Shown: positions 13,440 to 52,472 of the stretch, piece by piece
Layout of the letters: the number at the start of each line of letters is the position of its first letter
How positions within the stretch are numbered: the stretch's first letter is position 1
Assembly (NCBI RefSeq): GCF_963921235.1
Contig: NC_086108.1
Coordinates: 44,270,001 to 44,334,000, forward strand
Length of the DNA stretch: 64,000 nucleotides
Direction of reading: 5' to 3'
DNA from: Mobula hypostoma
Taxonomy: Eukaryota
Notes under the pieces: generated by a model
Database searches by the model: none
The model's input: the letters and a program-made list of their open reading frames with translations, nothing else
What the model was told of the DNA's origin: nothing
Position numbers and translations under genes: made by a program

Positions 13440-13610
13440 AAGTTGTATTCACTCACCTCGGGCGCCACTAATCCAGCACCCCGCCGGAACACGCCTCCGA
13501 CTCCAGACTCAGTCAATCAGGCGCGCTGGGTTAATGTACGGTTGCCGCTGAGCCAATCCCTGGTCCGCTATAAAGCTGCTCCACTACGCAGGACACACGC
13601 TGCGTACTCA
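13440..13610. promoter_or_regulatory. CpG-rich promoter-like region, possibly bidirectional
   Basis: Local CpG enrichment, AGCCAATC (~13551-13558), TATAAA (13569-13574, +) and a minus-strand consensus donor CGAG|GTGAGT at 13457/13456. Confidence 0.55.
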
Positions 13611-13743
13611 CTCCTGATACGTTTCTTCGGAATTACCTGGCATGCATGTCAGTTACAATTTAACAGCGCACTTACCTGGGGTACTGACCTTCGAGTTATT
13701 GAAGAATATTATTCTCTACAACGGTCCAAGAACTTACATTTGT

Positions 13744-13798
13744 ATGGAGCCCGCCAGTGTGATAATTTGGAAAACACTTTGCATACTGTTGACAGGAC
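13744..13798 (+). pseudogene. putative signal-peptide exon of an unrecognised disabled gene
   Basis: ATG GAG...: MEPASVIIWKTLCILLTG followed by a phase-1 donor C|gtaatt, ~170 nt after the TATA box. Confidence 0.4.
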
Positions 13799-14309
13799 GT
13801 AATTTAGCAGCACGCTGATTCGCCAAAGGTTGTGTTTAAAGGGAATCGGGAGTCCACACACGGAATTGTTAGGCGCTAAGGACGTGGTAGGCCGGTGCTC
13901 TACGAAAGATGGAGATGCTTTAGAAAATTGTTGTAGGAGTAGTCTAGATCTGTGGAATGGACAGATGGACATTTGAGGTCCCGCAATGTATTTCCAGGTC
14001 AGAACGGCGCATGAATTGGAAAACAACCTGCTCCTATGGGGTGAGAGGAATGGAAGTTTAGATTTGTTGCTGGGGTGCAATTAAGCGGGCAGCTTTGTCC
14101 TGTGTGGGGTCTAGCTTCTCGAGAATTGTTATTTCAGCACTGGTCCAAGCAGGTGGTGAATGTTCTGTCACATTCACGATGACCAGTGGTATTAATTACT
14201 TGGATGAGGACGTGGAAGGGTGAGATAGCATAGTCAGAATCAGGTTTAATATTACTAGCATTTGTCAGGAAATATGTTGTTTTGCAGCAATACATTCAAA
14301 TTGTGTGTA

Positions 14310-14690
14310 AGAAGATGAGGGGCATTGATCATGTGGATAGCCAGAGGCTTTTTCCCAGGGCTGAACTAGCTAATATGAGGGGGCATAGTTTTAAGGTGCC
14401 TGGGTGCTGTAATTGTTATATGGTTATATGGAAATGGGTACCAAGGGGATGTCAGGGGTAAGATTTTCACACAGAGAGTGGTGGGTCCGTGGAATGCACT
14501 GCCAGCAGCGGTGGTGGAAGCGGATACAATAGGGGTTTTAAGAGCCTCTTAGATGGGTACATGGAGGCTAGAAAAACAGAGGGCTGTGCGCTAGGGAAGT
14601 TCTAGGCAGTTTCTAGAGTAGGTTACATGGTCGGCGCGACATTGTGGGCTGAAGAGCCTGTAATGTGCTGTAGATTTCCATGTCCTATAA
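14310..14690 (+). mobile_element. CR1 3' fragment
   Basis: Close match to the reverse complement of the CR1 3' end at 9320-9650. Confidence 0.8.
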
Positions 14691-14769
14691 CTACATAATT
14701 TTTAAAACTATAAATTACTATATATATAATACATATTTGAATATATATATATATATTTATAATAAATAG

Positions 14770-15760
14770 TGCAAAAGAGAGCAAAAAATGAGGTAGTTAT
14801 ACGGGTTCATTGTACATTCAGAAATCTGATGGTGGTGCGGAAGAAGCAGTTCCTAAACTGTTGAGTATGTGTCCACAGGCTCTTGTACCACATCCTTGGT
14901 GTTAACAATGAGGAGAGGGCATGTCTGAGTGATGGGGGTTCTTAATGACAGATGCCACCTGTTTGAGGCATCGCCGTTTGAGGATGCTCTCGATGCTGTG
15001 GTGGTTGGTGCCCATGATGGGGCTGGGTGGGTTTGCAACTTCCTACAGCTTTTTCCAATCCTGTGTAGTGGCCCCTCCACTCCAGATGGCGATGCAACCA
15101 GTTAGGGTTGCTTTCCACAGTACACCTTCAGGAGTTTGTGAGGATCTCTGGTGACATACCAAGTCTACTCAGTCTCCTAATGAAAGATAGCCATTGTCTT
15201 GCCTACTTTGTAACTGCATCAATATGTTGAGTCCAGGATCTTCAGAGATGTTGACACCCAGAAGCTTGAAACTGCTCACCCTTTCCACTGCTGATCCCTC
15301 GATGAGGACTGGTGTGTGTTCCATTGACTTCTCCATCCTGACGTCCACATCAATTCCTTGGTCTTATTGATGTTGAATGCACCACTCAACCAGCTGATCT
15401 ATCTCACTCGTGTATGCCTCCTTGTCATCATCTTAATTGCTGCCAACAATAGTTGTGTTATAGGAAAATTTATAGATGGCATTTGAGCTATGCCTAGCCA
15501 CACAGTTGTAGGTGTAGGGAGAGTAAAGCAGTGGCCCAAGCACACATTATTGTGTGCCAGTGTGATTATCAGCAAGGAGGAAATGTTATTTCTGATCTGC
15601 ACTGACAGTGGTCTCCCAATGAGGAAGTCAAGGATCCAGTACAGAAAGGTACAGAGGCCCAGGTTTTGGAGCTTCTTGATTAGTACAGAGGGAATGATGG
15701 TTTTAAATGCTGAGCTATTAACAATAAGCAGCAGCCTGATGTAGGTATTGCCATCAGTAC
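14770..15760 (-). mobile_element. Rex1/Babar-like LINE RT fragment
   Basis: ORF 15399-15788 YIRLLLIVNSSAFKTIIPSVLIKKLQNLGL...WILDFLIGRP, same family as 48402-48962. Confidence 0.8.
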
Positions 15761-15764
15761 CGAT

Positions 15765-16660
15765 GTAGGTAGTTTGCAGATGACACAAGGTCTTGTGGCC
15801 TTGTGAGTAGTGTAGAAGGTTGCTGTGTTTTACAACAGGACATTGAAAAGATGCAGAGCTGCGCTGAGAAGTGGCGGATGGAGTTCAATCTGGCCAAGTG
15901 TGATGTGGTACACATTGGAAGATTGAACTTGAAGGCAGAGTACAAGGTTAATAGCAGGATTCTTAGCGTTGCAGAGAAACAGAGGGATCTTGTGGTCCGA
16001 GTCCATAGATCCCTTAAAGTTACTGCACAAGTCAGTGGGGTGGTTAAGAAGGCATGTTGTATGTTGGTGTTCATTAATAAAGATGTGAGTTAAAGAGCCA
16101 TGAGGTAATTTTGTGACTCTATAAAACTCTGGCTAGACCACACTTGGAATATTGCATTCAGTTTTGGTCATCTCATTATAGGAATGCTGTGGAAGCTTTA
16201 GAGAGGGTGCTGGAATAGAGAACATATCTTATGAAGAAAGGTTGAGTGAGCCATGTTCTCTTTGGAGTGAAAGACGATGAGAGGCAACTAGGTAGACTTG
16301 TATAAGAAGATTAGGAGGCATAGATAGTGGACAGCTAGTGCCTTTTCTCAGGACAGGAATGGCTAATACCAGAGGACATGGCTTTATGGTGAGTGGAGGA
16401 ATGTTTAGAGGAGATGCAGAGGTAGTCTTTTTGCATAGAGTGATGTGACCTGAATGCACTGCTGGGATGGTGGCAGAAGATGATACATTAGGGACACTTA
16501 AGAGACTCTTAAGTAGACACATGGATTTAAAAAATCATAAATGGAGGGATATGGGCTGTGTAGGAGGGAAGGATTAGATTGATTGTGAAGTAGGTATAAA
16601 GGTTGGCACAGCATCGTGGGCCAAAGGGTCTGTACTGTGCTGTACTGTTCTATGTTCTTT
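15765..16660 (+). mobile_element. CR1 3' fragment, degenerate
   Basis: FADDT at ~15774, ORF 15803-16093 (EKWRMEFNLAKC...RDL) and CR1 3' UTR. Confidence 0.85.
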
Positions 16661-17462
16661 CTCCACTTTTTAACCCGTTGGTTGTGAGATCAATTAGTTA
16701 TGATAATTGCAAGGTTGTTTTGTTTGTGGGTACTTCCAATTTGCATCTTCTCCAAATCTACCTATTGCTCCTAGCTGCATGCTTTTCTGCACCCCTTAGT
16801 GAACCAAGGTTGATTCCATCGCTTCATAATTATGGTAGAGAAAGGAATATGCCAAGGTTTCCCTGCCCGTGTTTGACATGATGCCATGAGACTGTAGTCA
16901 ATGTTGAAGGTTACTGCTTATGTACAATTCTGCCACCCTTCTGAGAAGTCAGTCTTGCCAGAGATACAGGACATACCCAAGGACTGAGGTGGAGATGTCT
17001 GGTACATTTTATGAAAAGTATAATTTTATTAACATGTTAATGTCAATTTGTGGGAATACTGATACAATTGTGATATTGTAGTTAAAAGTGAAGTTTATCA
17101 AAGCTAGAATTTGGGAGGATGCATTGGAAAACACCAGCCTGAAAATGATAGGTGGAAAAATGACAGAAGGTAGATGATATTCTAAGCAGATGTTGTTTAT
17201 GTAGATAACGTATAGAAACAGGGTCTTCCTTTCCTTCTTCTGCCCTTCCCTGCATTTTCCACCCTTTCCACATCTTCACCCTTCTACTTTCCTTCTTTTC
17301 CTTTCTTCTCCTGTATGCTTTCTTCCCCTCCCCCAGAAACAACCTGACCAATTTGCTTAATTACAAACAACAGGAATTCTGCAGATGCTGGAAATTCAAG
17401 CAACACACATCAAAGTTGCTGGTGAATGCAGCAGGCCAGGCAGCATCTCTAGGAAGAGGTAC

Positions 17463-17498
17463 AGTCGACGTTTCAGGCCGAGACCCTTCGTCAGGACT
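17463..17498 (-). ncRNA. minimal hammerhead ribozyme motif (Penelope pLTR)
   Basis: Minus strand agtc-CTGACGA-agggtctcggcct-GAAA-cgtc-gact: catalytic core with stem I agtc/gact. Confidence 0.75.
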
Positions 17499-18764
17499 AA
17501 CTGAAGGAAGAGTGAGTAAGGGATTTGAAAGTCGGAGGGGGAGGGGGAGATCCAAAATGATAGGAGAAGACAGGAGGGGGAGGGATAGAGCCAAGAGCTG
17601 GACAGGTGATAGGCAAAAGGGGATACGAGAGGATCATGGGACAGGAGGTCCGGGAAGAAAGACAAGGGGGAGGGACCCAGAGGATGGGCAAGAGGTATAT
17701 TCAGAGGGACAGAGGGAGAAAAAGGAGAGTGAGAGAAAGAATGTGTGCATAAAAATAAGTAACAGATGGGGTACGAGGGGGAGGCTTCCCTTCCTCCACT
17801 ATCAACTCTGCTCTTAAACGCATCTCCCCCATTTCACGTACACCTGCTCTCACTCCATCCTCCCGCCACCCCACTAGGAATAGGGTTCCACTGGTCCTCA
17901 CCTACCACCCCACCAGCCTCCGGGTCCAACATATTATTCTCCGTAACTTCCGCCACCTCCAACAGGATCCCACCACTAAGCACATCTTTCCCTCCCCACG
18001 CAACTCCCTTGTCCATTCGTCCCCCCCATCCCTCCCCACTGATCTCCCTCCTGGCACTTATCTGTGTAAGCGGAACAAGTGCTACACATGCTCTTACACT
18101 TCCTCCCTTAACACCATTCAGGGCCCCAAACAGTCCTTCCAGGTGAGGCAACACTTCACCTGTGAGTCGACAGGGGTGATATACTGCGTCCGGTGCTCCC
18201 GATGTGGCCTTTTATATATTGGCGAGACCCGACGCAGACTGGGAGACCGCTTTGCTGAACATCTACGCTCTGTCCGCCAGAGAAAGCAGGATCTCCCAGT
18301 GGCCACACATTTTAATTCCACATCCCATTCCCATTCTGACATGTCTATCCACAGCCTCCTCTACTGTAAAGGTGAAGCTACACTCAGGTTGGAGGAACAA
18401 CACCTTATATTCCGTCTGGGTAGCCTCCAACCTGATGGCATGAACATCGACTTCTCTAACTTCCGCTAAGGCCCCACCTCCCCCTCGTACCCCATCTGTT
18501 ACTTATTTTTATGCACACATTCTTTCTCTCACTCTCTTTTTTCTCCCTCTGTCCCTCTGAATATACCTCTTGCCCATCCTCTGGGTCACCCCCCCCCTTG
18601 TCTTTCTTCCCGGACCTCCTGTCCCATGATCCTCTCGTATCCCCTTTTGCCTATCACCCGTCCAGCTATCGGCTCTATCCCTCCCCCTCCTGTCTTCTCC
18701 CATCATTTTGCATCTCCCCCTCCCCCTCCAACTTTCAAATCCCTTACTCACTCTTCCTTCAGTT

Positions 18765-18800
18765 AGTCCTGACGAAGGGTCTCGGCCTGAAACGTCGACT
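18765..18800 (+). ncRNA. minimal hammerhead ribozyme motif (Penelope pLTR)
   Basis: agtc-CTGACGA-agggtctcggcct-GAAA-cgtc-gact. Confidence 0.75.
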
Positions 18801-19570
18801 GCACCTCTTCCTACAGAATTTGTTTAATTACCCAGGTTTAATAGTCTAGGAAATTGGATGCTTTCCATTTATGTGTTATCTCCAGTTCTTTGTTGACCAA
18901 TAACTTGCAATGCTTCTTTCCTCCTCCCTTTCCATTCTCTCCTTTTCTAACTATGTGCCGAGTCTTGCATTGGCCTGTATCTCAGGCATGTCCAGTCTCA
19001 GGCACAGGGAATCATGCTGAGGCTAGAATTCTGGAAATAATTTACTTTGATATTATTTCTAATCCTTTTAATTCCCCTTTTAAAATTATATACCCACTTA
19101 TTGCTGGGTTCTTATGTTGACCAATAACTGCCTTCTCTCTCCTTTCCATCAAGGTCTTATTCAGTCACAAAAATGGAAAATACTGGAAAAGGTTTGGATG
19201 AAACATTAAATCTGCTGCTCTTTCCACAGATGTCAAGTGTTTCTAGCAATCTCTGCTTTGTTTCAGTCTTCCAGCATCCAAATATTTTTTTGTTATTCAG
19301 TCAAAACTGTCCAACATTTTGAAGATGGCACATCAGATCTTGCTCACCAGCTGAATATTTCTAGCCATTTCTATATTTTTTGGAAGATTCCATCAGTGGT
19401 TCTTAATACAGAACTGTCCAAATTGTTTACATTCTTAATTTTATCTATTTCCTTTCCCTTGAGTAACTGCATGCTGCTGTTTGCCTTTACTTTGTTTTGG
19501 CTACCAAACCCACCTTTCAATTCATGTTCATCTCTGAGATTGGGTGGTCAATCTTAAACATGTTTTACAG

Positions 19571-19760
19571 GATGAAGCTAGAAACTTGTACATCACTGTT
19601 TGCTACACAATTAATGTGTCAGTGGTGGCACAGTACATTTGAATGGTCCTCAAGATCTGCAGTTTGTTTCCCAGGAAAATGTGCAGCCAAACATCAGATT
19701 ATTGAAGATTACAGACCCTTTGGAAAACACCATATTGGGATTTCCTATAGACCCGATGGT
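19571..19760 (+). pseudogene. disabled exon, repeat-domain copy 1 of an unrecognised gene
   Basis: Acceptor tgttttacag|. Reads CVSGGTVHLNGPQDLQFVSQENVQPNIRLLKITDPLENTIL/ISYRPDG with upstream stops and a 1-nt frameshift. Donor gtaaga at 19761. Homologous to 20605-20682. Confidence 0.65.
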
Positions 19761-20059
19761 GTAAGACATTCTTTTCAAAAAGTTACACATTATTTCTTAT
19801 TTCTAACTTTTGAAATATTATATTTAATTTATCTCATACTTGATACTTACAATTCTAATCTATCATCTTCAAATTAAGGAGCATGTTTTAGCTTGAAGCT
19901 GTGTAATCAATTCCCTAGATACTCATGAAAAGTGCACATGTAATCCCTTCAATAAATGAGGAAAATCTTCAGGGTGTGACTGATTGTTTTAATGGCTTTA
20001 CCAAACTTTGGCTGTTAGCGACACCAAAGAACTGACAAAATAGCATCATAAAATAGAGG

Positions 20060-20420
20060 AAAGACTTGCATTTACATGGTGCTTTTTACAACTTATAGTC
20101 CTTTGCATGTAACTTTATGGGCCAATGTGTGGTCACTAATGCAATGTAAAATACATAGCAGCTAACTTGCATGGAGCAAGTTCTCACAAAATGTAATAAT
20201 GGTAAGATATCCTTAACAAGACCTTTGCTCTATCTCAAGATAGGATTATGCAATCTTTAATGTAACATCTAATCAAAACGATACAGTCTCAGACAGTTTA
20301 GCTGTCAATTGGTGCAGTAATGAATACAAACAGAAAACTTTGTGCTCATTTTCTGAAATGAGACTTGAACCCAACAAATCTGCCCCCAGTGGAAAGAGTA
20401 TTACCAAATAGTCCATATCT
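20060..20420 (-). mobile_element. highly degenerate ancient Deu-domain-type SINE
   Basis: Patchy similarity by eye to the reverse complement of 24700-25080. Confidence 0.35.
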
Positions 20421-20519
20421 CCTGATGTTTCACAACCACATCCCCCAGATCAGCATTTTTAAGTCACTACTTTAAATGGTGTATTAGACAAAATGATATG
20501 AATCATAGAATTATTTCAG

Positions 20520-20682
20520 TTATGAGCCACAGGTTGATACGTGGATTACATTCACAGAAGAGAGTTGAATTCTATGTATTTGACCAAAGAAGAGACAACT
20601 CTTACAACTGAACATTAGGTTATTAAAAATTGCAGGTCTTTTATAAAATACCTTTATCCAAATTTCCTTCAGACCTGATGGT
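20520..20682 (+). pseudogene. disabled exon, repeat-domain copy 2 of an unrecognised gene
   Basis: Acceptor ttatttcag|. Reads QLNIRLLKIAGLL*NTFIQISFRPDG (TAA at 20644-20646). 17 of 26 residues are identical to copy 1, 8 of them via synonymous codons. Confidence 0.65.
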
Positions 20683-21129
20683 TAAAAGGTATTTACTTCA
20701 GAGAATTTCAAGTTATTTTAAGTTCCCAACTAAGTTTTGAAATGTTTTAAATTTATTTAAGTTAGAAAAGTTGCGTGATATTTATATTTTAATCTATCAT
20801 CTAAAACTGAGAATAGTTTCATCCAGAAGCTCTGACATTGAGATAAAAAGCAGACAGAACCAACTAACACATTCTTCAGTTTAGAAGAATAAGAGATAAT
20901 CTCATTGAAATGTGAGATTCTTGCAAGACTTGAGAGGTAGAATGTCAAGAACCAGAGCTCAGTGCCTCAAAATAAAGGGTTCAGCTGTTCGTTACAAAGA
21001 TGAGAAGAAATGTTTTCACCAGGAATATCATGAACCCTTGGAATATTCTTAACAAAGGAGCTGTGGAAGTTTAGGGCCCAGTATATTAAAGGGATTGATA
21101 GATTTTAGGGAACCCTGGCTGATGAGAGG

Positions 21130-23570
21130 CTATAGTAAAGAAAAAGAAGGAAGCATACATTGCATTTAGATAATAGGATATGACTGAATCCCTCATGAGT
21201 ATAAAGTTTTTAAAACCAGTCTTAAGAGGGAAATCAGGAGGGCAAAGATATGATATGAGATGGGTTTAGCAGGCAGGGTTGAAGATAATCCAAAGAGGTT
21301 CTTCAGTAATATTAATAGTAAAAAGGTGAACAAGGAGAGATTAGGTCCACTTAGAGACCATCAGGGCTGCCTACGTATAGAGCAGCAGGAGATGACTGTG
21401 GTTTTTAATGTCTATTTCTCCTTGGGGTTTACTAAGAAGAATACCATGGATGCCAAAGAAAATAAGGGTAATAAGTTGTGAGGTCTTGGATCATATTCAT
21501 ATAGGTAATGAGGAAGGAGGTATTTGCAGTCTTCAAGTGTATTAAGGTGGCCAAATCACCAGGGCCTGACCAAGTGCACCCCTGAACCAGGGAGGAAATT
21601 GCAGAGACCCATTTAGAGATAGTTTGCCTTATCATTGGCCACTGGTGAAGTTCCTGAAGACTGAAGGGTGACTAATGTTGTTCCATTGTTCAAGAAAGGT
21701 AGCAAGAACTGGCCAGTGAGCATGACTTCAGTTGGAGGGAAGCTACTGGAGGGATTTAGAGGAACTCAACCTATCATCATTTGGATAGTCAAGGCCTGAT
21801 CAGCAAGAGTCAGCATGGCTTTGTACATGGGAGATCATGTCTTATGAATCTTTTTGTGCTTTTTGAAGAGATAACCCAAATGGATTATTGAAGGTAGGGC
21901 AGTGGATGTTGTATATACAGATACAGCAAGGCTTTTGACAAGGTCCAACATGGCAAGCTGATCTGGAAGATTTGTTGTATGGATTCAAGGGGAGTTAGCA
22001 CAGCAGCACCTCCACTTCCTTAAGAGTTTGTGATGATTTGGCATGACATCTAAAACTTCGACAAACTTCCATAGGTGAACAGTGGAGTTATATGGACTGG
22101 CAGCATCACAGCCTGATATGGAGACACCAATGCCCTTCAATGGAAAATTCTACAAAAAGTTGTGGGAATGGCCCAGACCATCACAGTTAAAGCCCTCTCA
22201 ACTATTGAGCCTATCTGCATGAAACACTGTTGCAAGAAAGCAGCATCTGTCATCAGGGACCCCCACCACCCAGGATATGCTCTCTTCGTGTGCTGCCATC
22301 AGGAAGAAGATAAGCCTCAGGACTCATAGCACCAAGTTCAGGAACAGTTATTACCCCGCAACCATCAGGCTCTTGAACCAAAGGGGATAACTTCACTCAA
22401 CCCACTTGCCCCATCATTGAAATGTTCCCACAACCAATGGGTTCAATCATGTTCTTGATAATTTATTGCTTGCTTGCTTATTAATTAATTAATTAATTAA
22501 TTCTGTATTTGCACAGCTTGTTTTCTGCACTCTGGTTGAACGTCCAAGTTGGGCAGTCTTTCATTGATTCTGTAAGAGTTATTATTCTATAGATTTATTG
22601 AGTATACTGCAAGAAAATGAATCTCAGGGTTTTGGATGGTGACGTATATGTACTTTGATAATAAATTCACTTTGAACTTTGAAATTGGTTCAATGATAGG
22701 TAGCAGAGGGTGAAAGTTAATGATTGATTCTATGACTGGAAGCCTGTGAGTAGTGGGATCCCCCATGGGTGAGTGTTGAGACCTCTTGTTACTTGTTATT
22801 AGCAAGTTTGATGATCATTCTAAATTAAGGCATCTTGTTAATTGTGAAATAGATTACATTCAATTGCAAAGAGATCTTGATCAGTTAGGGAGATGGGCTG
22901 AGGAATGTCAAATGGATTTCAACTTAGATAAGCATGAGGTAATGCATTTTGGACAAGTCCTAACCTGAGTAGGACTTAAAAAGCGAATGATAGGGCATTG
23001 ATGAGTGTTATGGAACAGAAGAACCTGTGGGTACAAATACATAGTTTGCTGAAAACTGCCACACAAGTAGACAGGGTGCTGGAATGCTGGCTTTCATCAG
23101 TCAGGACATTAAGTTTAGGAGTAGAGGCATTATGTTGCAGATATATAAGTTGTTGATGAGGCTGTGCTTGGAGTGTTGTGTAATTTCACTCACTCTGTTG
23201 TCGCAAAGATTCAAGCTGGTGCAGAAGAGGTTTACAAGGTTGCTGTCTGGACCAGAGGGCCTGAGTTATGAGGAGGTGAGGAAAATGAGGGGTGACCTTG
23301 TAGAAGGATATGGATAAGGTGGGTTGGGGAGCCAATACTAGAGAACACAGATACAAGAGGGGAGAGATTCAAAAGGAAACCTGAGGGGTAACTTCTTTAC
23401 ATAGAAGGCAGTGAGTAGTTGGACTGAGCTGCTGGAGGAAGTGGTCAAGGTGTGCACAATTGCATTTGGATAGGTACATGTAGGGGAGGGGTCTCAAAAA
23501 GTTATGGGACAACTGTGGACAACTGGGTTGTAGTCAGCATGGACCATTTGGGCTGAAGAGCCTGTTTACT
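21130..23570 (+). mobile_element. old CR1 ORF2 remnant, interrupted by a Rex1-like insertion
   Basis: DNPKRFF (ORF 21260-21481), KSPGPD, AFDKV, SKFDD/LQRDLDQLGRW (22786-22968), MLAFISQ (23084). Confidence 0.8.
22000..22682 (+). mobile_element. Rex1/Babar-like LINE 3' part nested in CR1
   Basis: Remnants of the DPHHPG..LF..LPSGRR..FRNSYYP region. Tail gataataaattcactttgaactttgaa. Confidence 0.7.
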
Positions 23571-23783
23571 GTTTCTCCAATATGAAAGAGTAAGAAAATA
23601 AGGGAATATGAGTTTTGTGTAGGAAAATGGGGCAGGTAAAATATCACTGAAGATTTTAGTGAACAGTTATGCAGACATAGGAGTGAATGGCCTATTATTG
23701 CTTCTATTTCCGTTGTTATAAATATAAAATTTCAAGTATGTTCATGCAAATTAAGGTAACCAATTGTTTTCTTTCAATAACAG

Positions 23784-23919
23784 GAAGGATTGGTTTGATA
23801 AGGTTGTTGATCTTGGATAGAGCCTCAATCCTTAACGTGAACTCAGTGTTACCTAGTCCAAGGATTATTGAAATTCTGTGCCTGGCTATAAGTCCCTCTC
23901 CCTACTGAATTCTAATAAT
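23784..23919 (+). pseudogene. possible further disabled exon of the same gene
   Basis: Good acceptor tgtttttctttcaataacag| in unique sequence. Reading frame ambiguous and stops present. Confidence 0.2.
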
Positions 23920-24014
23920 GTAGCTTTATAAATACAACTTCTGTCAAAGAAAGCAGGAATAGTTGGTGATAACCTATTGTAAAACATTAAGTATCTTTTA
24001 TGAAGAAATCTTTA

Positions 24015-24218
24015 GAATCATAGAAACATAGAAAACCTACAGCACAATACAGGCCCTTCGGCCCACAAAGCTGTGCCGAACATGTCCCTACCTTACAATT
24101 ACCTAGGCTTTACCCATAGCCCTCTATTTTTCTAAGCTCCATGTAGCCATCCAGGAGTCCCTTAAAAGACCCTATTGTTTCTGCCTCCACTGCCACCGCC
24201 GGCAGCCCATTCCACGCG
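24015..24218 (-). mobile_element. CR1 extreme 3' end
   Basis: Close match to 9308-9505 including the agaaacatagaaa tail. Confidence 0.85.
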
Positions 24219-24419
24219 CTTTATTTGGCACATCTGGAAATAGGAATGCTGAACGCCTGATTTGAAACTAGAAACTGGTAGAAACACACAATAGGCCAGC
24301 AGCATTTTTTCAGAATGTTATCATTGAGGTTGATGATCTTTCATGTGTTTGTAGTGACAGCATAAGTGACTGTTCGATAAGATAATCTGAATACTAAATT
24401 TGAAGTTTCTGCTTTTCAG

Positions 24420-24637
24420 AAAAGACAGGTATCATAGTTGGTCCCATTCTTTCTATGACACACCCAGTTTCATTGCTAAGTTATAATAGTCATTTCAATG
24501 ACTTGCTGGTCTCATTGCAGTACACACAAAGGCTATACAACCTTTGGAATAAATTTCACCAGGAGGGTGTATACTAATATATAAAGCTCTTGACAACAGC
24601 CTTCTCTGTTCAGGCAAATTATGAGACTCTTAAAATG
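24420..24637 (+). pseudogene. putative transmembrane exon, frameshifted
   Basis: Acceptor tttctgcttttcag|, phase 1. Reads KTGIIVGPILSMTHPVSLL and, after a 1-nt shift, VIIVISMTCWSHCS. Candidate donor gtaatt. Confidence 0.35.
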
Positions 24638-24699
24638 TAATTTGTGAAAATTGGGTAATTGAGGGGGGTGGCAGCAAAGAAGATACAAATCAGTCCATG

Positions 24700-25080
24700 A
24701 GTATCAGCATTGGTCTAGTAAAATATTTTTAAAATCATGTGAGTTCAATCACCACTTCAAGTAGAGTGCAATATCCAGGCTGACATTTTATCAGAGCATT
24801 GAGGGTGCACCGTGTGGACATCTTTACCAAGCAATGTTAAACTATGCCTTTGTCTGAGGCCTCAGGTGGGAAAAAAGATTCCATAGTACCATTTGAGGAA
24901 TACTTTCAATTCTCCTAATGTCCTGGATAATATTTATCCCGCAGACCAATGACACTCCATTAGATAATGTCTTGTGAAACCTTGTATTGTGCAAATACAT
25001 TGCCACACTTTCTGAACTACAAAATTGACAACGCTTCCAAAGTACTTCATTATGCATGAAGTACTTTGAGGTCGTAAAAA
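24700..25080 (+). mobile_element. ancient Deu-domain SINE (SacSINE1/AmnSINE1-like), degenerate
   Basis: B-box-like gagttcaatc, Deu-like gtcctggataatatttatccc and aagtacttcatt tail region. Recognised from memory of the family. Confidence 0.5.
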
Positions 25081-25212
25081 CTGTTACTATTGGTCAATGT
25101 AATCTATAACCCAGATCAGAGTTTCAGTTGAGGTGGGGCTGAGGTAGGAGCAGAGATGAGGCTTCCACAATTCAGCCAGAAAAACGGCAAGTCTGTTTCA
25201 TGTGGTCCATGA

Positions 25213-25683
25213 TTCAAGATTCAAGATTGTTTAATGTCATTTACAGTGCATAAGTGTAAAGAAGAATGAAATCACTCTATCTCCAGATCTGATGCAGCAT
25301 ACAAAAAACACACTACAATAAATAATACATTTATAAAAAAGAGCACAGTAAATATAAATACATAAGATGACCTATATACATAGATTGATTATACGTAATG
25401 TTAGGTACAGAGTGTCCGTACAGAAGGTGACTCTGGACTCTGCCAGGAGATGATAAAGTAGTGGTGGTGGGGTATGGGGGGTGGTGGGTGGGTTGGTGGG
25501 TGGGTTAGTGGGTGAAGGTGATGACCAGCCTTACTGCTTGGGGGAAGTAATTGTTTTGAGGCTGGTAGTCCTGATGTGAATGCTACGTAGTCTCCTCCCT
25601 GATGGAAGTGGGACACACAGTCCATGCACAGGGTGCGGGGGATCCTTCATGATGTTGCCGGCCATTTTCCACCTCCTTTCTGC
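25213..25683 (-). mobile_element. Rex1-like LINE 3' end
   Basis: KDPPHPVHGLCVPLPSGRRLRSI (25531-25716) and (ttcaaga)n tail. Confidence 0.7.
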
Positions 25684-25703
25684 ATATATGTCTATATACG
25701 TGT

Positions 25704-27087
25704 CTGTAATGTGCAAAAGTCATAGGCACACGTAAAAAATTTCGGTAAAGTGAGGATGCTTTCAAAAATAATGAAATGAAAAGTTTCTAAGTACCAAAAA
25801 ATGCTGTAAAGAGCAATAAGTAGTAAAAAAAACTAATTCCATTCCATATCTGGTGTGACCACCATTTCCCCTAAAACTGCATCAATTCTCTCAGGTACAC
25901 AGCCGTGCAGTTCAATACGAAAATTGGCTGTTAGGTTGTCCCTAGCATCTTGGAGAACATGCCACAGTTCTGCAGACTTTGGCTGCCTCGCTTGCTTCTG
26001 TCTATCCAGGTAATCCCAGACAACCTTGATGATGTTGAGACGCAGCGCGCGCAGCTCTCCAGTGAAATGATATCGTATTTGTAAGTAGGATGCCATGCAC
26101 AATTCTGATTTGATGGAGACAGATGTGAGAAGGCACAGAGGAACATCTCAAGAAATTTCTGAAATGCCCGGTTCGCTGCCGCTGCTACTGTGTGATCGAG
26201 AATCTCCGGAGGGAAGGCCCCAAAATCCCCGGCTTTGCCTGCTGCTGGTGACCAAGGCTGAGGTTGAAGCGTTCAGCAGAGATGGTGCTCAGTACTCAGT
26301 GTCGGAGGGCTGATCGGAGCTCGAAGTTTTTGGATGACTCAGAGTCGGACTGTGGTCGGGTATGGCAGGGGGAGTTTTCTTCCTTCTCCTGTCTGCGTGA
26401 GATGTGGGACTTTCGAGAGACTTTGAACTTTTTACTGTGCCATGGCCTGTTCTTCATCAAGTTATGGTATTGTTGCACTGTTGTAACTGTGTGTCATAAT
26501 TATGTGGTTTTTGTTAGTTTTTCAGTTTTGGTCTGTCCTGTGTTTCTGTGATATCACACCGGAGGAATATTGTATCATTTCTTAATGCATGCATTACTAA
26601 ATGACAATAAAAGAGGACTGCGTGTCCTCATAATCTATAGATAGATAGATAGATAGATATACTTTATTGATCCCGAGGGAAATTGGGTTTCGTTACAGCC
26701 GCACCAACCAAGAATAGAGCATAAATATAGCAATACAAAAACCACAAACAATCAAACAACAAAATGCAAACTATGCCAGATGAAAAAAAGTCCAGGACCA
26801 GTCTATTGGCTCAGGGTGTCTGACCCTCCACGGGAGGAGCTGCAAGTTCAATGGCCACAGGCAGCAACGACCTCCCATGCCGCCCAGTGTTGAATCTCGG
26901 TGGAATGTGGCCGAAGTCCAACAGTAGAGAGTTCAATATCCGGTCTAAAAACATGTTCCTCGATCGTAATATGACCCAGATTGCACCTAATCAAATCTAA
27001 TCTAATCTAATCAGGGCCCTGTCCAGGCCATACCATCTGAAACCGTATAAAAATCTAGGGTGCCCGAGACCTTTGCACAATACTGCA
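25704..27087 (-). mobile_element. deleted Tc1/mariner element with nested insertions
   Basis: Inverted ends ctgtaatgtgcaaaagtcataggcac / gtgcccgagacctttgcacaatactg. Transposase C-terminal remnant LNIIKVVWDYLDR...ELWHVLQDA...PERIDAV (25833-26040). Confidence 0.7.
26041..26636 (+). mobile_element. ~600-bp non-autonomous retroelement (copy 1)
   Basis: Homologous to 40984-41606, with AATAAA. The (aatct)n tail resumes at ~26995-27012 after a nested LINE 3' end (26637-26990). Confidence 0.7.
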
Positions 27088-27349
27088 CATAACACACACA
27101 GAGTTTTTAAATGGTCTCAGATGGTATGGCCACCAGAGAGCCCTGATCTCAATACCATGTTCGCTGCATGTTCAAGTAGAACTGGAACCCTCAGAACTCA
27201 TTAATACCCTCTTACTAACTGCTCACATAGTATATATAGTTCTGAGAATTTCAGTTCTACTTGAAAATGTGTCAAACATTTTATGTCAAATTACTGTACC
27301 TCTGTCAGGAAACAATGGGACTAATTTAGATCCTGGGATTCTCTACTTC

Positions 27350-27435
27350 TAATATTTTCAAAAATAGCAGTGATATCATCCTGCAGCCAACTGAATTAAT
27401 GACCTTGTAGTGAGGAGATGTTCTCAAATTTAAAG
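27350..27435 (+). pseudogene. possible disabled cytoplasmic-domain exon (3' part)
   Basis: Reads NIFKNSSDIILQPTELMTL**GDVLKFK, then G|gttgtg (phase 1), compatible with the acceptor at 28621. Confidence 0.25.
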
Positions 27436-27849
27436 GTTGTGAATTTGTCTGCATAGGAAAAAAAATTAAACAAATATTCAAATTAAGGCTGCTGAGAGAA
27501 ACATTGACCAGAGTGGATAAAAAAAAGAACGGGTGTTATTATTTTTAGTTTATAACTAATATTGTTACAGATTTTACACCTTTGTTCTCCACCCTTCCAC
27601 AGACATCCCTTTTGTTCTCTCCACTTCTTCCCTAGCTTGAAAGCCTACAACTTTGAAGACTGAGTTCTGATGAACGTCAGTGACCTGAAACCTTAACGCT
27701 TTCCTCTCTACACAGATGTTGTTTAACCTGTTGAATATCTCCAGCACTGTTTTAATTCTTATTGACAACTCCGATCACTTTGTTCCACCACAACACTCAC
27801 AACATGCTGGAGGAACTCAGCAGGGTCGGGCAGCATCCATGGAAATGAA

Positions 27850-27887
27850 CAGTCAACGTTTCGGGCCGGAACCCTTCGTCAGGACTG
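27850..27887 (-). ncRNA. minimal hammerhead ribozyme motif
   Basis: Minus strand cagtc-CTGACGA-agggttccggccc-GAAA-cgtt-gactg. Confidence 0.7.
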
Positions 27888-28463
27888 AAGAGGGAAGGGG
27901 CAGAGGCCCTATAAAGAAGGTGGGGGGAGGATGGGAAGGAGAAGGCTGGTAGGTTCCAGGTGAAAAACCAGTAAGGGGAAAGATAAAGGGGTGGGGGAGG
28001 GGAAGAAGGGAGGGATAGGCAGGAAAGGTGAAGAAGGAATAGGGGAAAGCACAATGGGTAGTAGAAGGAGGCGGAACCATGAGGGAGGTGATAGGCAGCT
28101 GGGAGAGGGGGCAGAGTGAAACTGGGATGGGGGAAGGGAATTATCGGAAGTTGGAGAATTCAATGTTCATGCCCAGGGGCTGGAGACTACCGAGACGGTA
28201 CATGAGGTGTTGCTCCTCCCCCATCCCAGTTTCACTCTGCCCCCTCCTCCAGCTGTCTATCACCTCCCTCTTGGTTGTGCCTCCTTCTACTACCCATTGT
28301 GCTTTCCCCTATTCCTTCTTCACCTTTCCTGCCTATCACCTCCCTGCTTGCCCTCCCCCACCCCTTGATCGTTCCCCTTACTGGATTTCATCTGGCACCT
28401 ACCTGCCTTCTCCTTCCCACCCTCCCCCCACCTTCTTTATAGGGCCTCTGCCCCCTCCCTCTT

Positions 28464-28501
28464 CAGTCCTGACGAAGGGTCTCGGCCTGAAACGTTGACT
28501 G
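28464..28501 (+). ncRNA. minimal hammerhead ribozyme motif
   Basis: cagtc-CTGACGA-agggtctcggcct-GAAA-cgtt-gactg. Confidence 0.7.
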
Positions 28502-28621
28502 TTTGTTTGCATGGATGCTGCCCGACCTGCTGAGTTCCTCCAGCGTGTTGCTTTGACCCCAGCATCTGCAGAGTATGTTGTGTTTACTTTGTTCCACTGA
28601 TCACCCCATCATTGTTCTAAG

Positions 28622-28802
28622 GTTTGGTCAATTATATTTACCTCAATCATGACATTAACAGCTACTTATCCAGCTATTTTGAATGTAAATTTAAAATGGA
28701 ATCTACTCTAATATTTCAAAAAGACAAATTACCATAAATCATGATGGAGGGGTTATCCACCAGATTTACTGTATTACCGCATTGTGCTTCAACAGATATT
28801 GG
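28622..28802 (+). pseudogene. possible disabled exon of the same gene
   Basis: Acceptor ttgttctaag|, phase 1. Reads (G)LVNYIYLNHDINSYLSSYFECKFKMESTLIFQKDKLP*IMMEGLSTRFTVLPHCASTDI, one stop in ~60 codons of AT-rich DNA. Confidence 0.3.
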
Positions 28803-29164
28803 ATAAGTAATTTCAATGTTTTCAGGCCAACACTATTTAATCCTGAATATTTATTTTTTTATATAAGTTTTGACAGTCATCCCCAGTTCTGAGTCCCCCT
28901 CCCTCAAGCTGTTCACCTCTGATGCTGCATATGAAGACATTGTGAATTTCTTTGCTTCCAAAATTGAAGCCACTAACTTGATCTGATCCAATCCTATAGT
29001 TTATCTCTTCTCTGCTTCTCCTGACTAAGGCTGTTAGCGAGTTGTATAAATCCTGGCTCTTTGGCACACGAGTTAAGCACCCATTTAAGTACCCATTTAT
29101 ACTTGTCATAAATTAATCAATTTTTTATTTTCCCCATATTATCATTAACTCCCTTCCAGATTCC

Positions 29165-29400
29165 ACCACTATCCTACACACTAGGGCCAATTTGCAGCAG
29201 CCTATTAAGCAACCACCCTGTACATCAAGGATCAATTTTATCAAACTTTATTCCCCATATATATTTACATGCATTAGGAATTTGCTGTGGTGTGTTGGTG
29301 CTCCATGCAACAAAAATCTTTTGGATGTGGAAGGCAACCCAGGTAGGGAGAATGTGCAAACTCCCTTCAGAGAGCACCTAAGATCAGAATTGAACCTGTC
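29165..29400 (-). mobile_element. degenerate shark-type (HE1/V-SINE-like) SINE
   Basis: tttggatgtggaagg...gggagaatgtgcaaactcc motif typical of this SINE group, recognised from memory. Confidence 0.45.
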
Positions 29401-30299
29401 ATTCTGTAAGGTTTTTGGTTTCTGCAACAAAATCCATTCCGTGGCTGAAAATTCCAACCCTGAAAACGATCTGGAGCAGAACCAAATAGATCATTGTCCT
29501 GGCATCAAATCTGACCACAAAACAAGTTTTGACCCATGTATTTACACCATACCCAGGATAACCCATGTATTTGGCACTCTACTAAAACTAATTATTTGCT
29601 GAAGCCATCATCCTACACCTTCACCGTCATGAGGTTTGATGACCCCAGCCCATTCAAAGCTATTCTCCCACATCTACCACCAGTCTTTGACCATCCAAAA
29701 TCCTAATACTGTGTCCTGTCAAACCATCTCTCTGCTCTTCTGACAAACTATAGATTCCTGCCACAGTTGCAATTGTAAAATTCTGTCTCTAGTTTTCAAA
29801 CCATCTCCATTATCTGACTTTTCCTTCATCTATATTCTCCCACAGCCTTGTAAATCCAATAATTCTGGTTGATTGATCATTCTCAAATTTAGTAGCTTTA
29901 CCATTGGTGTCTGTGCATTCAACTAATAAAAATTGGTTGCAGTGCACCTTAAATCATTTTGTTAACATTAGAAGATCTATGTAAAGATAAGCTGAGTTGT
30001 TCTTTTTGTCCTAATATAGAAAAAACGATTCTTTCAGTAATAATGTTTTACAGTTTGTTTTCAGAATCCATAAAAATTTCAAACTGATTTCAATAGTCTG
30101 CTTTTATACACAATTGGATCCGGAAAAAATATGGTGTTAAAATGGTTATGATATTATGATTCAGACTTATGAAGCTGGGGAACTTTAGTGCTAACGTATT
30201 TTATTGCATGAAAGCTTGATTTAAAAATGTAATTTAAAAATCTCAACAAACTAGTTTCTAACTTGAGTTACTAACACGGTAGAGTTTCACATGCTTTCA

Positions 30300-30700
30300 G
30301 TTCCTGGAAGTCCAAATAGCAATTTGCTGACGTGTCATTGTTTAGTTAAAAGTAATCACCTAGTTTAAATGCCCGGCAGCTAATAAAGTAGAAGCCCTTT
30401 GTTCAAGTCTGATGCGTGGCACCCATTCTCTCTTTTCGTACCGTATGACAAAAATAGTTCCTTGATTGATGCCGAGTCATCGTGAGTGCGACGGATGAGT
30501 GACGGCCTCCACCTCCGAAGGCCGTCTCATTCGCCCTCTTCATTGGTTAGCTCACCATGATTGACACGCAATTGCGTCCGCCTCCTACACATCTTCCTGC
30601 CTCTGAGTGGTTGCGACGCCTGTCACTCAGCTTGATTGAGCAGCTGCTTGCTGCTGAATGGTCCTTGGCGCTTTTCTTCGGTGCGCCGCCTTAGTTTGTT
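30300..30700 (+). promoter_or_regulatory. KEAP1: KEAP1 promoter (CpG-rich)
   Basis: Sharp CpG rise from ~30410 to ~31450, inverted CCAAT (cattggtt 30541), TGATTGAC/TGAGTGAC motifs and an ARE at 30470-30480. It is the nearest promoter-like region upstream of the first KEAP1 coding exon. Confidence 0.7.
30470..30480 (-). promoter_or_regulatory. antioxidant response element (NRF2-sMAF site)
   Basis: Minus strand ATGACTCGGCA matches RTGACnnnGCA, one mismatch from ATGACTCAGCA. Confidence 0.6.
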
Positions 30701-30829
30701 TTAGGTGGGATCGGGAATCTGTCATGGAGCTTCAGTTTTGGAGATAAATCAAGCTTGGGGGGAGTTTATGAAGACCCGGGCGTGAGCGTGTAAAAGGCCG
30801 GCTTGCATCCTCAGTTCCCAGGGCCGAGT
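30660..30829 (+). other. KEAP1: probable non-coding exon 1 of KEAP1 (start approximate)
   Basis: Consensus donor |GTAAGT at 30830 within the CpG island. Human KEAP1 also has a non-coding exon 1. Confidence 0.5.
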
Positions 30830-33626
30830 GTAAGTACTCAGAAGGGAGGAACAGTAGAGGCGGCCTTTCTCGTCGTTCTCACATGTCGGGGTGAAAAACT
30901 GGGGGCGGCGGCGGCCGAGAGGTTACAAAGCAGCAGGGGGTCACTGCAAAATGTCCGAGCAGCATTGTTATGGACTGTCGGCTGCACCGGCGGGCTTTGT
31001 AGATCATGGTGTTGCAGTCTGTCCCAAGGTTAGGTGGAGGAATGTGTCCAGGCTTCACCTCCAGATCTTACTCTTGAAGCTTGGCCTGCGTGGAAGGCAA
31101 AGCCGGAGTCAGCGCCGCGGCATCTGCTCTTCTTTCTCCTCCTCCTCCTCTCCAGTACTCTTTCTATTCCCTTTATGGCCAAACTCTATTTTCCTGAGTT
31201 CGGTTCGGTCCAGCCAGACCTTGTACCAAATTAGCGAGAGCAAAACCTGAAAGGGCTCGTCTTTGGAGAAATCCGTGACCTAGACGAAATGTTAGCACAA
31301 GAAAGCTAGATAAAATGTTCTGTCAGTAGAACATTGCCGATAGTGTATTACAAAGCTTGTGGGCGCGCTTTGCAATTGTCTCCGACCGCTGAAATACGAC
31401 TTGCTGCGCAATGTGTGTGGTTATCAACTGGTTCGCCTTCAGTCTTAAATTGTAGCGAAACCTCTCCGAGAAGATATAGAAGTGACCATTTGACACATGT
31501 TGCAGAGTCAGTGGTGTCATTTAAACTGCCTCAACATTATACTTCAATTACGTAGGGGTTGTTTTTATTTTAAACAAGTTGAAAGCGTTTTGCACAAAAT
31601 CAAAGAGAATTAGAAAATTAATCATCATAAAACCGTTTTTAAAAACAATCCAGAAATTCCATGTGATATCAGAATTTGTCCTTTTAATCCAATGGGCCCA
31701 ACTATATATATAGAAACACACATTCAACAAGTCTCTAGAATGGACAGTGACTTTATACAGTAACGTAAATTGTTTAAAAATATATATTTACAGCAGGCAG
31801 GGTCTTAACTGGGTTAACTGAACGTGGGGGTTGGGGGGAGCAATGGTGTTCTATTGTTCCTTTGTTTAATGTCAGTATTTGTTCTTCCTATATCAGTTTC
31901 GGGATCAAGGTCAGTCTAAATAAGTGTTATCCAAAAGAAAGGATAGCTTTCAGTGAAATAGTCAAAGCTCAGTTTTTGAACCATTGGATCTAAATTACCA
32001 GTGCATTTATTGGTTTGCATCCTTTTAACTGTACCTTGTCAAAACGTCTTTGTGTGACTGACTATGCCTTGTCTATGTAACTTGCATCTGTTAAATAACT
32101 TTATACCAATAATAGGTAACCCTAAAATATTGAAGATGCAGACATGCATACAAAGATTTTGTATTTTTCTATTTTCTACTTGCCATCTCTCTTTAAGGTC
32201 ACCCAACCAATTTAAGTTAGTCCCAGCCAGTAAATATGTGCATATTATCAGCTTTTGAAGTTCCATTTCTTTTGCATTTCAGTCACTCGGTTGTATACAA
32301 TTGAAATTCACATGTAAAACTTTTTCCCATCGCGCACTAGTACTTTTCTTTCCATATTTTTCAATAAACTACCATATTACCAGGAGCTTTGTGGCTCAGG
32401 CCAATATTTATCCCACTCACAACACCGCCACATTCAGTTATTTCACCAATCCTTTGTGAAATGTCCTGTTGCACAAATTAACCATGTTTCACAGTATTGT
32501 AAGTAACTAAGCTTTTAAAATTAATTTGTAACAATATTGTGAAGAATCATATGAATTCAGCCTTGCATGTTTTCATTTCAAGACTTTCCAAATTTGAGGT
32601 TTCAACTTAATTTTCCTCTTAATAATGCAACTCCCAGTGTTCTTAGTTCAAAATGAAGTTGGAATGTGAGGTACCTCAGTAAATCCAGTTTACTTATGGA
32701 TACAATATTAACAGCATTGGAGCTAAAGGTGGAAGAAAAGAGCAGCTATGCAGCAAGATCTGTTGGTGAATAAAGAAAAATGTGTGCTATGACAGCTGTT
32801 GGTGAAAAGAACAACATGTGTGATGGGAGCTGTTAGTGAATACAGAGGAATGTGTGGAGAGACCTATTAGTGAATAATGAAAGCTGAGAGTTTTCTTCTT
32901 TTCTGTACATCAGAAAGGATCCATTACTGATGAGTGATGCTGTTAAACTATTCTATTCCATTCCTTTGCGATGATATGTGCGTAGTTACATAAGTGAAGA
33001 TTTTTTTTAAATTCTAAAAATAGCAGAATATTTTGGTGGCATATAGAATAACAAAGGTCCGAGATCATGAGGAACTTAATATAAATGTATTTTTTAAATT
33101 GTATCATTAAAAATGTTGTCATTATTTTTGAGTAGATGCTTATGGTGGTGTAGTTACTGAGTCAATCAGCAAATTGGGTTGCAACATCATTTCCCTGGAT
33201 TTGTGCTTAAGTATCTTGTTCCTGCGTTTAAGTGACCTGAGGTATTACAAAGTAATGGATACAAAACCCCAGATGAGGCTTGATTTTAATGAAGCTTGAC
33301 CTGGAGGGGAAACTTCTTTTTCCCCAATAATATGTAAGTACAGCTAGTTTAATGAACATAAAATATTCTTACCTCAGCTGCAAAAATGCATTTTCTTTAT
33401 GGAAACTACTTTTTTCTGTGTCATAATCTGTGCTTGGGAATGGTTGTCCTTGTTCTACCATTTGAACAGTTTGACTGTGACACAGGAATCAACCATCTAA
33501 AATTTATGCTTAAATATTTTTATATTAGGTACTTTTAATATTAAATGTTTAATTGCCATTTGAAGTTGGTGCTTCTGTTCTGAATTAGTTACTGGAGCCT
33601 TAATGGAACATAAGAATATGGTGTAC

Positions 33627-43819: not shown

Positions 43820-44248
43820 TTCATGGCATTAAGTTTGGGAACCCCTGGTTTAGGTGGAGCTTGGGCAGTCCCTGGGGTGTTAGTTCTACTCCATTTCTAA
43901 GGCAACTGAGGAGACCAGTCTGGAAACTAAACTTCCCTCATAGAGCTGTTGGAGAGTACCTGATGAGTCAGATTGCTGGGTAGTTTGCTGCTCTATGTGC
44001 ATTCCCGAAGACTAAACGAGGAGTTTCTTTGGCCAGAGGGTGGTGAATCTGTGGAATTCATTATCACAGGCGGCTGTGGAAGCCAAGTCATTCAGTATAG
44101 TTAAGACAGAGGTTGATAAATTCTTGATTAGTCAAGGAGAAGACAGGAGATTGGGGCTGAGAGGGAAAATGGATCAGCCATGATGAAATGGAAGACTCAC
44201 AAGCGCTGGAGGAACTCAGCAGGTCAGTCAGCATCATTTGAAAAGATT

Positions 44249-51929: not shown

Positions 51930-52472
51930 ATGTCGATGACAACAGAGTGCACAGCAGAAGTGATGCCATCACAAAATGCCAGTCGCAACTTTAGCTACAC
52001 ACTGGAAAGCCACACGGTGGAAGCCTTTAAAATAATGAATGAAATACGTTTAAACAAGCAACTTTGTGACGTGACACTCAGGGTGAAGCACAATACTCTG
52101 GAAGAAGAGTTTGTTGCACATAAGATTGTTCTCGCCTCCTGTAGCCCTGTTTTCAAGGCTATGTTTACCAATGGTTTGAAAGAATGTGGAATGGAGGTTA
52201 TACCTATTGAGGGTGTTCACCCTAAAGTAATGCAGCGCTTAATTGAGTTTGCATATACAGCCAGTATTACAGTTGGAGAGAAATGTGTCCTGCACGTTAT
52301 GAATGGCGCAGTAATGTACCAGATAGACAGCGTTGTTAAAGCATGCTGCAAATTCCTGCTGGAGCAATTGGATCCAAGCAATGCCATTGGTATTGCCTCA
52401 TTTGCTGAGCAAATTGGCTGCCATGAGTTGAGTCAAAAGTCCAGAGAGTATATATACCTGCACTTTAGTGAG
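51930..52472 (+). CDS. KEAP1: Kelch-like ECH-associated protein 1, first coding exon (BTB and start of IVR/BACK)
   Basis: TECTAEVMPSQ...QLCDVTL...FKAMFTNGL...GEKCVLHVMNGAVMYQIDSVV...YIYLHFSE, then phase-0 donor |gtaggt. Collinear with human KEAP1 residues 32-213. Confidence 0.98.

What the first reader, a model, noticed from the sequence alone, without database searches (positions are those of the whole stretch)
13744..30190. Hidden multi-exon pseudogene of an unrecognised type-I membrane protein directly upstream of KEAP1
Unique islands between repeats carry plus-strand acceptors and donors, several in phase 1, in a sensible order. These are a signal peptide (13744-13798), two homologous domains (19571-19760, 20520-20682), a possible exon at 23784, a hydrophobic TM-like exon (24420), and 27350-27435 joining in phase to 28622-28802. 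A possible last exon lies at ~30065-30190 (TDFNSLLLYTIGSG...GYDIMIQTYEAGEL*). Every internal piece has stops or frameshifts, so the ORF track misses it. I do not recognise the family. Only the duplicated domain is strongly supported; assembly into one gene is inference. If intact in sharks or bony fishes, this is a lineage-specific loss of an uncharacterised receptor-like gene.
Basis: partly seen in the sequence, partly recalled or inferred. Interest (0 to 1): 0.8.

Follow-up and report, generated by a model that had tools for sequence, protein, structure and literature searches.

The report
Decayed repeat-exon gene beside KEAP1
Just upstream of the KEAP1 gene lie two worn copies of one likely former protein-coding exon, probably the remains of a dead gene of no recognised family; the other five proposed exons and the claimed membrane anchor did not stand out from chance.

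Summary
Partly confirmed. The neighbour is KEAP1. Islands A (19571-19760) and B (20520-20682) are a real tandem duplicate: 13 of 21 differences fall at third codon positions, and about 145 bp of 3' flank is duplicated too. So they were very likely coding exons, now broken by stops and frameshifts. The rest is unproven. C, D, E, F and G show no significant likeness to A/B. The 'TM exon' needs a frameshift, and 15% of random AT-rich segments score as well. 27350 has no acceptor. The 'signal peptide' overlaps a CpG island holding four strong minus-strand donors. No exon-exon joint appeared in the rows shown. No homologue was found in any protein search. One weak lead: the ends of A and B sit in gapless register with WD40 strands d-a. 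Best reading: a dead, intron-containing gene built of phase-1 repeat exons, possibly beta-propeller blades; a type-I receptor is less supported. Shark and skate genomes, not available here, would decide it.

The parts
13501..14000 (.). CpG-rich promoter region; CCAAT at 13553 and TATAAA at 13569 on the + strand
   Evidence: CpG o/e 0.86 against 0.31 for the window; motif positions
13457..13738 (-). Four strong minus-strand splice donors (13738, 13676, 13637, 13457); likely 5' exon(s) of a separate leftward transcript
   Evidence: 4 of the 34 strong minus-strand donors of the window lie within 282 nt; P about 0.014 by random placement
13744..13798 (+). Candidate first exon, 18 codons plus 1 nt, signal-peptide-like; uncertain
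   Evidence: 35 of 2518 ATGs in the window give an equally hydrophobic open 18-mer; donor score -0.3; an in-frame upstream Met exists
19571..19760 (+). Island A: broken former coding exon, copy 1 (about 63 codons)
   Evidence: acceptor top 3.4%
19763..19903 (+). 3' flank duplicated together with A
   Evidence: 101 of 135 aligned bases match 20686-20834; strict score 62 against 20.7+/-4.4, next best 36
20520..20682 (+). Island B: broken former coding exon, copy 2 (about 54 codons, one stop in the core, at least one frameshift)
20686..20834 (+). 3' flank duplicated together with B
23784..23967 (+). Island C: candidate exon; strongest acceptor, 40 open codons in phase 1; 3' end uncertain
   Evidence: WD40-model shuffle p 0.002-0.013 but under 3 bits; no significant likeness to A/B
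24420..24568 (+). Island D: candidate exon, open for 49 codons in phase 1; TM character not shown
27309..27437 (+). Island E: weak candidate (acceptor at 27309, not 27350; poor donor)
27777..28597 (.). Repeat insertion with a 12-bp target-site duplication (27777-27788 and 28586-28597), ending 24 nt before F's acceptor; absent in two relatives
   Evidence: contigs of runs X3 and X5 go from 27776 straight to 28586 (table 8)
28622..28801 (+). Island F: candidate 60-codon phase-1 exon with one stop; no GT donor at its end
   Evidence: phmmer over 1.84 billion proteins gave one spurious hit
30065..30188 (+). Island G: candidate last exon, needs a frameshift; AATAAA follows at 30382
30642..30829 (+). 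Likely KEAP1 non-coding first exon inside a CpG island
   Evidence: a contig of run X2 lies on 30642-30829 and leaves the stretch exactly at a GTAAGT donor; CpG o/e 0.74-0.89
51933..52472 (+). KEAP1 BTB coding exon (BACK-Kelch exon at 60548-61240)
   Evidence: Pfam BTB, BACK, Kelch; KEAP1 chain 6wcq_C, E 6.5e-86

Best explanation
The region likely holds a dead, intron-containing gene whose protein was probably built from repeated modules of 50-63 residues, one per exon, and which is predicted to make no protein today. Shown: A and B are a tandem duplicate of an exon-sized unit plus its 3' flank, with codon-patterned divergence, and both now carry stops or frameshifts; a repeat inserted next to F after the split from two relatives. 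Inferred: a TATA promoter and signal-peptide exon fed a run of phase-1 exons (A, B, probably C, D, F, perhaps E, G) ending near the AATAAA before the KEAP1 promoter, giving a soluble protein of roughly 390 residues; symmetric phase-1 exons would let a module be added by local duplication, as happened for A/B; after selection lapsed the exons decayed at the neutral rate. The fold I favour, weakly (about 1 in 3), is a WD40-like beta-propeller with each exon ending on the strand a-b turn.
For: A/B core, 25 codons: differences by codon position 4/4/13, binomial p 0.007; 8 of 16 changed codons synonymous in this frame against 2-3 in the other plus frames; pS 0.76, pN 0.14. Homology of the coding part ends at a G-GT in both copies. 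B, C, D, F share phase 1 with exon 1. Order TATA 13569, ATG 13744, stop 30188, AATAAA 30382. Island-containing pieces differ from relatives by 2.2-8.9%, like the A-B intron at 4.8%, so no strong present constraint is visible at this resolution. A contig of run X1 (RNA status a guess) runs unspliced across A's donor. Fold: the 21 residues before the final PDG score in gapless register on a WD40 model built from unrelated bacterial loci (A shuffle p 0.0004, top 0.2% of 90,233 window peptides; B p 0.009); 0 of 55 control peptides before a PDG reach A's score; one of 3 metagenome matches to the shared A/B motif is a true WD40 repeat.
Against: With transition bias simulated, 8 or more synonymous codons arise by chance at p 0.025 (this frame) to 0.066 (any of six), so the Fisher p of 9e-6 overstates the case. 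One antisense frame shows the same pattern, 9 of 16. The 3' flank (75% identity with gaps) is more alike than the third positions (48%), which I cannot explain. C-G do not rise above background against A/B. Donors are poor. WD40 scores are negative or under 3 bits, 77% of peptides before a PDG in WD40 loci score at least as high as A, the GH dipeptide is absent, strands b-c are not significant (p 0.17-0.99), B drops to p 0.06 once its last 7 residues are left out, and no island is in the top 8 of 1600 open stretches. The register test was chosen after seeing the metagenome match. Pfam, NCBIfam and PDB give nothing.
Confidence: 0.45

Rival explanations
1. Only A and B are former exons, a fragment of some gene (or of two genes); C-G are AT-rich single-copy DNA picked out by chance splice signals.
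For: No significant similarity of C-G to A/B or to each other: 20 of 21 pairs lie within background. With about 400 plus-strand AGs in the unique DNA of 20.7-30.3 kb (my estimate), a site like D is expected about 0.7 times and one like C about 0.1 times from the rates. F found no homologue in 1.84 billion proteins. E lacks the stated acceptor.
Against: Shared phase 1 in B, C, D, F; C's acceptor in the top 0.3%; a well-placed stop and AATAAA.
Confidence: 0.25
2. One reading: a dead type-I membrane receptor with signal peptide, two or three extracellular modules, a TM exon (D) and a cytoplasmic part (E, F, G).
For: Signal-peptide-like first exon (1.4% of ATGs). With one assumed frameshift D reads as a hydrophobic stretch of KD 1.99-2.16.
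Against: 15% of random segments match that score and 49% pass 1.6. D is fully open in a non-TM frame. No cytoplasmic family (TIR, SEFIR, death or other) was reported by Pfam for E, F or G in any frame. D's 3' end resembles the A/B end about as well (rank 45 of 829; a site 1 nt away ranks 10 of 3084 on the WD40 model).
Confidence: 0.2
3. A and B are an old tandem duplication of non-coding or regulatory DNA, or of a long-dead mobile element, and no host gene ever lay here; the CpG island at 13.5-14 kb serves only a leftward gene.
For: The duplication extends 145 bp past the supposed donor at similar overall identity. Simulated p for the synonymous pattern is only 0.025-0.066. Four strong minus-strand donors overlap 'exon 1'.
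Against: First and second positions 84% identical against 48% at third positions. No third copy in the window (nhmmer). Single long contigs cover A and B in a relative, unlike the flanking repeats.
Confidence: 0.1

Closest known systems
Unprocessed (unitary or duplicated) pseudogenes of vertebrates (class definition recalled; seen as search listing only)
   Same: Intron-exon layout kept, stops and frameshifts, repeat insertions, neutral-level divergence from relatives
   Different: Parent family and intact orthologue not found, so 'unitary' and the time of loss are not shown
WD40 repeat (Pfam PF00400) and related beta-propeller blades (Lactonase PF10282, NHL PF01436)
   Same: The last 24 residues of A and B align without gaps to WD40 strands d and a and the PDG turn; C has a weak strand-a likeness
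   Different: No GH or WD dipeptide, longer units (54-63 residues against a 42-column model), no Pfam hit, bit scores near zero; WD40 proteins are as a rule intracellular (recalled), which sits badly with a signal peptide
S1PR5, the gene that lies 5' of KEAP1 in human 19p13.2 (order recalled; co-listing of KEAP1, S1PR5, ATG4D and PDE4A at 19p13.2 seen in passages of PMC13700139)
   Same: Same position relative to KEAP1
   Different: S1PR5 is a seven-TM receptor (recalled); no GPCR family matched any island

Membership tests
Unprocessed pseudogene | Former coding constraint | tested here: met
   A/B only: third-position excess p 0.007, pS 0.76 against pN 0.14; simulation p 0.025-0.066
Unprocessed pseudogene | Disabling stops or frameshifts | tested here: met
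   A and B each need an indel to stay in register, B has an in-frame stop in the core; D has none
Unprocessed pseudogene | Exons belong to one transcription unit | tested here: inconclusive
   No island-island joint in 15 of 2828 joint rows shown
Unitary pseudogene (lineage-specific loss) | Intact orthologue at the syntenic place in an outgroup, no intact paralogue in this genome | not testable with these tools
   No own genome, no vertebrate genomes; protein searches blank but insensitive
Type-I membrane protein | Cleavable signal peptide | tested here: inconclusive
   Hydrophobicity screen only, 35 of 2518 ATGs equal; SignalP not available
Type-I membrane protein | One TM helix in an open frame | tested here: not met
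   Open frame KD 1.27; mosaic frame not above chance
WD40 repeat PF00400 | Profile match above threshold | tested here: not met
   No Pfam hit; home-built model under 3 bits
WD40 repeat PF00400 | GH and WD dipeptides | tested here: not met
   Column print-out
Beta-propeller (works like) | Four-strand blade register ending in an aromatic-x-PDG turn | tested here: inconclusive
   d-a register p 0.0004-0.009, b-c not significant; AlphaFold model uninformative, pLDDT 59.6
Jacalin-like lectin PF01419 | Profile match | tested here: not met
   Model from 13 bacterial domains: best p 0.08
Fibronectin type III, PKD, FG-GAP | Profile match | tested here: not met
   All island p at or above 0.115

The most novel reading that the evidence does not exclude
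This is the fossil of a cartilaginous-fish gene family with no detectable relative in public protein sets: a secreted seven-bladed beta-propeller in which each phase-1 exon (A-G) encodes one blade, extended by tandem exon duplication, still intact next to keap1 in sharks or skates and lost in this ray lineage.
Probability: 0.15. Interest if true: 0.6.

Novelty: new member of a known kind. Interest (0 to 1): 0.3.

Why it matters
A decayed gene is an ordinary object. Its value here is as a pointer: if the syntenic place in sharks or skates holds an intact gene, that gene would be an uncharacterised exon-modular protein family, and its loss could be dated on the ray tree from shared lesions. Without that orthologue the finding has little reach, and the receptor label should not be carried forward.

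Tried and rejected
Own genome: none held. Word-based homologue searches: A piece, 9 candidates, none at E<=10; A+B alignment, 26 candidates, none; stacked C-G readings, 2338 candidates, none; the tool calls these weak evidence. phmmer of F over 1.84 billion proteins: 1 hit, a tandem-repeat ORF whose score is summed over 4 stretches, rejected. ESM Atlas: no usable hit for the A piece or D; F was not examined there. Pfam and NCBIfam on island frames: nothing below E 0.03. PDB sequence searches: nothing below E 0.14; antibody light chains for F (E 0.6) and SPT5 for C (E 0.56) treated as chance. Rfam: 0 matches. tblastn in plasmids, translated-pattern scans of metagenomes and viruses: none. AlphaFold on a 2-row alignment: pLDDT 59.6, pTM 0.18, not searched further. 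Sequencing runs: no RNA holder listed; of 11 runs 4 were laid; the two RNA-guess runs show no or almost no cover on C, D, F, G, which is no evidence of silence; tables were swamped by repeats (40 of 651 substitutions, 12 of 73 indels, 15 of 2828 joints shown), so sharing of the lesions with relatives could not be read. Ideas dropped: all islands as detectable copies of A/B; D~F and E~G pairs (within background); YVTN likeness of B (5 bits, gone with the refined model); jacalin, fn3, PKD, FG-GAP; TIR, Ig, hemopexin and CUB resemblances (recalled, unsupported). In one search the YVTN and NHL columns may be off register, so those two rows are not fair tests. Literature: seven searches listed no paper describing a gene 5' of keap1 in cartilaginous fish; I saw listings and abstract starts, plus keap1 passages of PMC3280201, PMC6737965 and PMC13700139; supplements were not opened and synteny tables there could bear on this. 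Earlier findings: none near or alike.
Full report
Setting. The window is repeat-rich animal DNA (reverse transcriptase, GIY-YIG and DDE transposase pieces). The BTB-BACK-Kelch gene from 51933 is KEAP1. Its likely non-coding first exon is 30642-30829: a contig of run X2 lies there and leaves the stretch at a GTAAGT donor, inside a CpG island. No whole genome was held.

What is solid. A (19571-19760) and B (20520-20682) are homologous: DNA score 98 against 52+/-7.5, translated score 59 against 28.5+/-3.8. In the 25-codon ungapped core 21 bases differ, 4, 4 and 13 at codon positions 1, 2 and 3 (binomial p 0.007); 8 of 16 changed codons are synonymous; pS is 0.76 and pN 0.14. A simulation that keeps the transition bias gives a milder p of 0.025 for this frame and 0.066 for any frame. 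One antisense frame shares the pattern, but acceptors before and a G-GT after both copies favour the plus strand. The duplicated unit includes about 145 bp of 3' flank (101 of 135 aligned bases) and not the 5' flank; no third copy exists in the window. This is a local tandem duplication of an exon. That the flank is more alike than the third positions is unexplained. A needs at least one indel to align with B, and B has a stop in the core, so both are broken.

What is not solid. C, D, E, F and G show no significant likeness to A, B or one another in pairwise protein, pairwise DNA, profile-scan or splice-anchored tests. Their acceptors range from strong (C, G, D) to ordinary (F); 27350 has none. 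All proposed donors are weak. B, C, D and F have their longest open frame in phase 1, matching exon 1, but each length alone is reached by 8-23% of background acceptors. D is open for 49 codons in a frame with no TM-grade stretch; the TM reading needs a frameshift and 15% of 150 random AT-rich segments score as high. The signal-peptide exon lies 175 nt after a TATA box and is rarer than chance (35 of 2518 ATGs), but it overlaps a CpG island with four strong minus-strand donors, so the island may chiefly serve a leftward gene. G's stop is followed by AATAAA at 30382, before the KEAP1 promoter.

Relatives. Four of 11 listed runs were laid on 19400-30900. Pieces that hold islands differ from two relatives by 2.2-8.9%, the A-B intron by 4.8%; these pieces include intron, so only strong constraint would show. 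Four changes in A shared by two relatives split 2 synonymous, 2 not. The repeat at 27777-28597, with a 12-bp target-site duplication and ending 24 nt before F's acceptor, is absent from both DNA relatives, so it is recent. One contig of X1 crosses A's donor unspliced and its alignment breaks at 19590 inside A; whether X1 is RNA is a guess. No joint between islands was among the 15 of 2828 rows shown.

Family. Every protein search was blank or spurious (Pfam 17, 52, 116; NCBIfam 80; PDB 24, 49-51, 102, 104, 117). These were single-exon or stacked queries of broken sequence, so absence is weak evidence; a joined multi-exon query was not run against the large libraries. I built repeat models from bacterial family members and scored the island readings. 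fn3, PKD, FG-GAP and jacalin gave nothing. Propeller models gave small signals: A on lactonase and NHL p 0.005-0.015, C on WD40 p 0.002-0.013, all under 3.5 bits, on a par with KEAP1's own Kelch on the NHL model. A pattern made from the shared A/B motif matched 3 metagenome stretches, one a true WD40 repeat in frame. Testing that register afterwards, the 21 residues before PDG scored at shuffle p 0.0004 (A) and 0.009 (B), above all or nearly all of 55 control peptides, yet far below real WD40 repeats and without GH. In an unselected six-frame scan no island reached the top 8 of 1600. So it may work like a propeller blade; it is not a WD40 member.

Verdict. A dead exon-modular gene is the most likely reading (0.45 for a soluble repeat protein, 0.2 for the type-I receptor, 0.25 for A/B alone being real, 0.1 for no gene). 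The object is of a known kind; its family is unidentified. Seven literature searches listed nothing on it. The deciding test is a synteny search in shark and skate genomes.

Noticed in passing
window 13457-13738 (-): Cluster of four strong minus-strand donors in a CpG island; suggests a leftward transcript whose further exons I did not find in 880-2900 (Pfam blank).
   Followed up: partly
window 19928-19957: Contigs of two RNA-guess runs from different studies end at 19928 and 19937, shortly before an AATAAA at about 19953, while a DNA contig goes on; a weak hint of a transcript end in the A-B intron.
   Followed up: no
window 19763-19903 and 20686-20834: The duplicated 3' flank is more alike (75% with gaps) than third codon positions of the exon core (48%); could be a constrained intronic element or later conversion.
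   Followed up: partly
window 27309-27407 and 30092-30188: E and G each contain K-N-x-x-D-I-x-x-Q followed by a TAG in the same register; alignment scores stay within background.
   Followed up: partly
window 30829-51900: KEAP1's likely first intron spans about 21 kb of repeats, including a Tc1-type transposase piece at 46993-47682.
   Followed up: no
window 17361-18820: Penelope-like insert: GIY-YIG ORF (17762-18466) between inverted copies of its terminal segment; similar pieces recur at 44200-45400 and 58800-60250.
   Followed up: no
window 27440-27492: 53 bp right after E's proposed end are missing in relative X3 but present in X5.
   Followed up: no
L188:1978-2484: Metagenome ORF of 168 residues holding the same turn motif as A/B, with no Pfam family.
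   Followed up: partly
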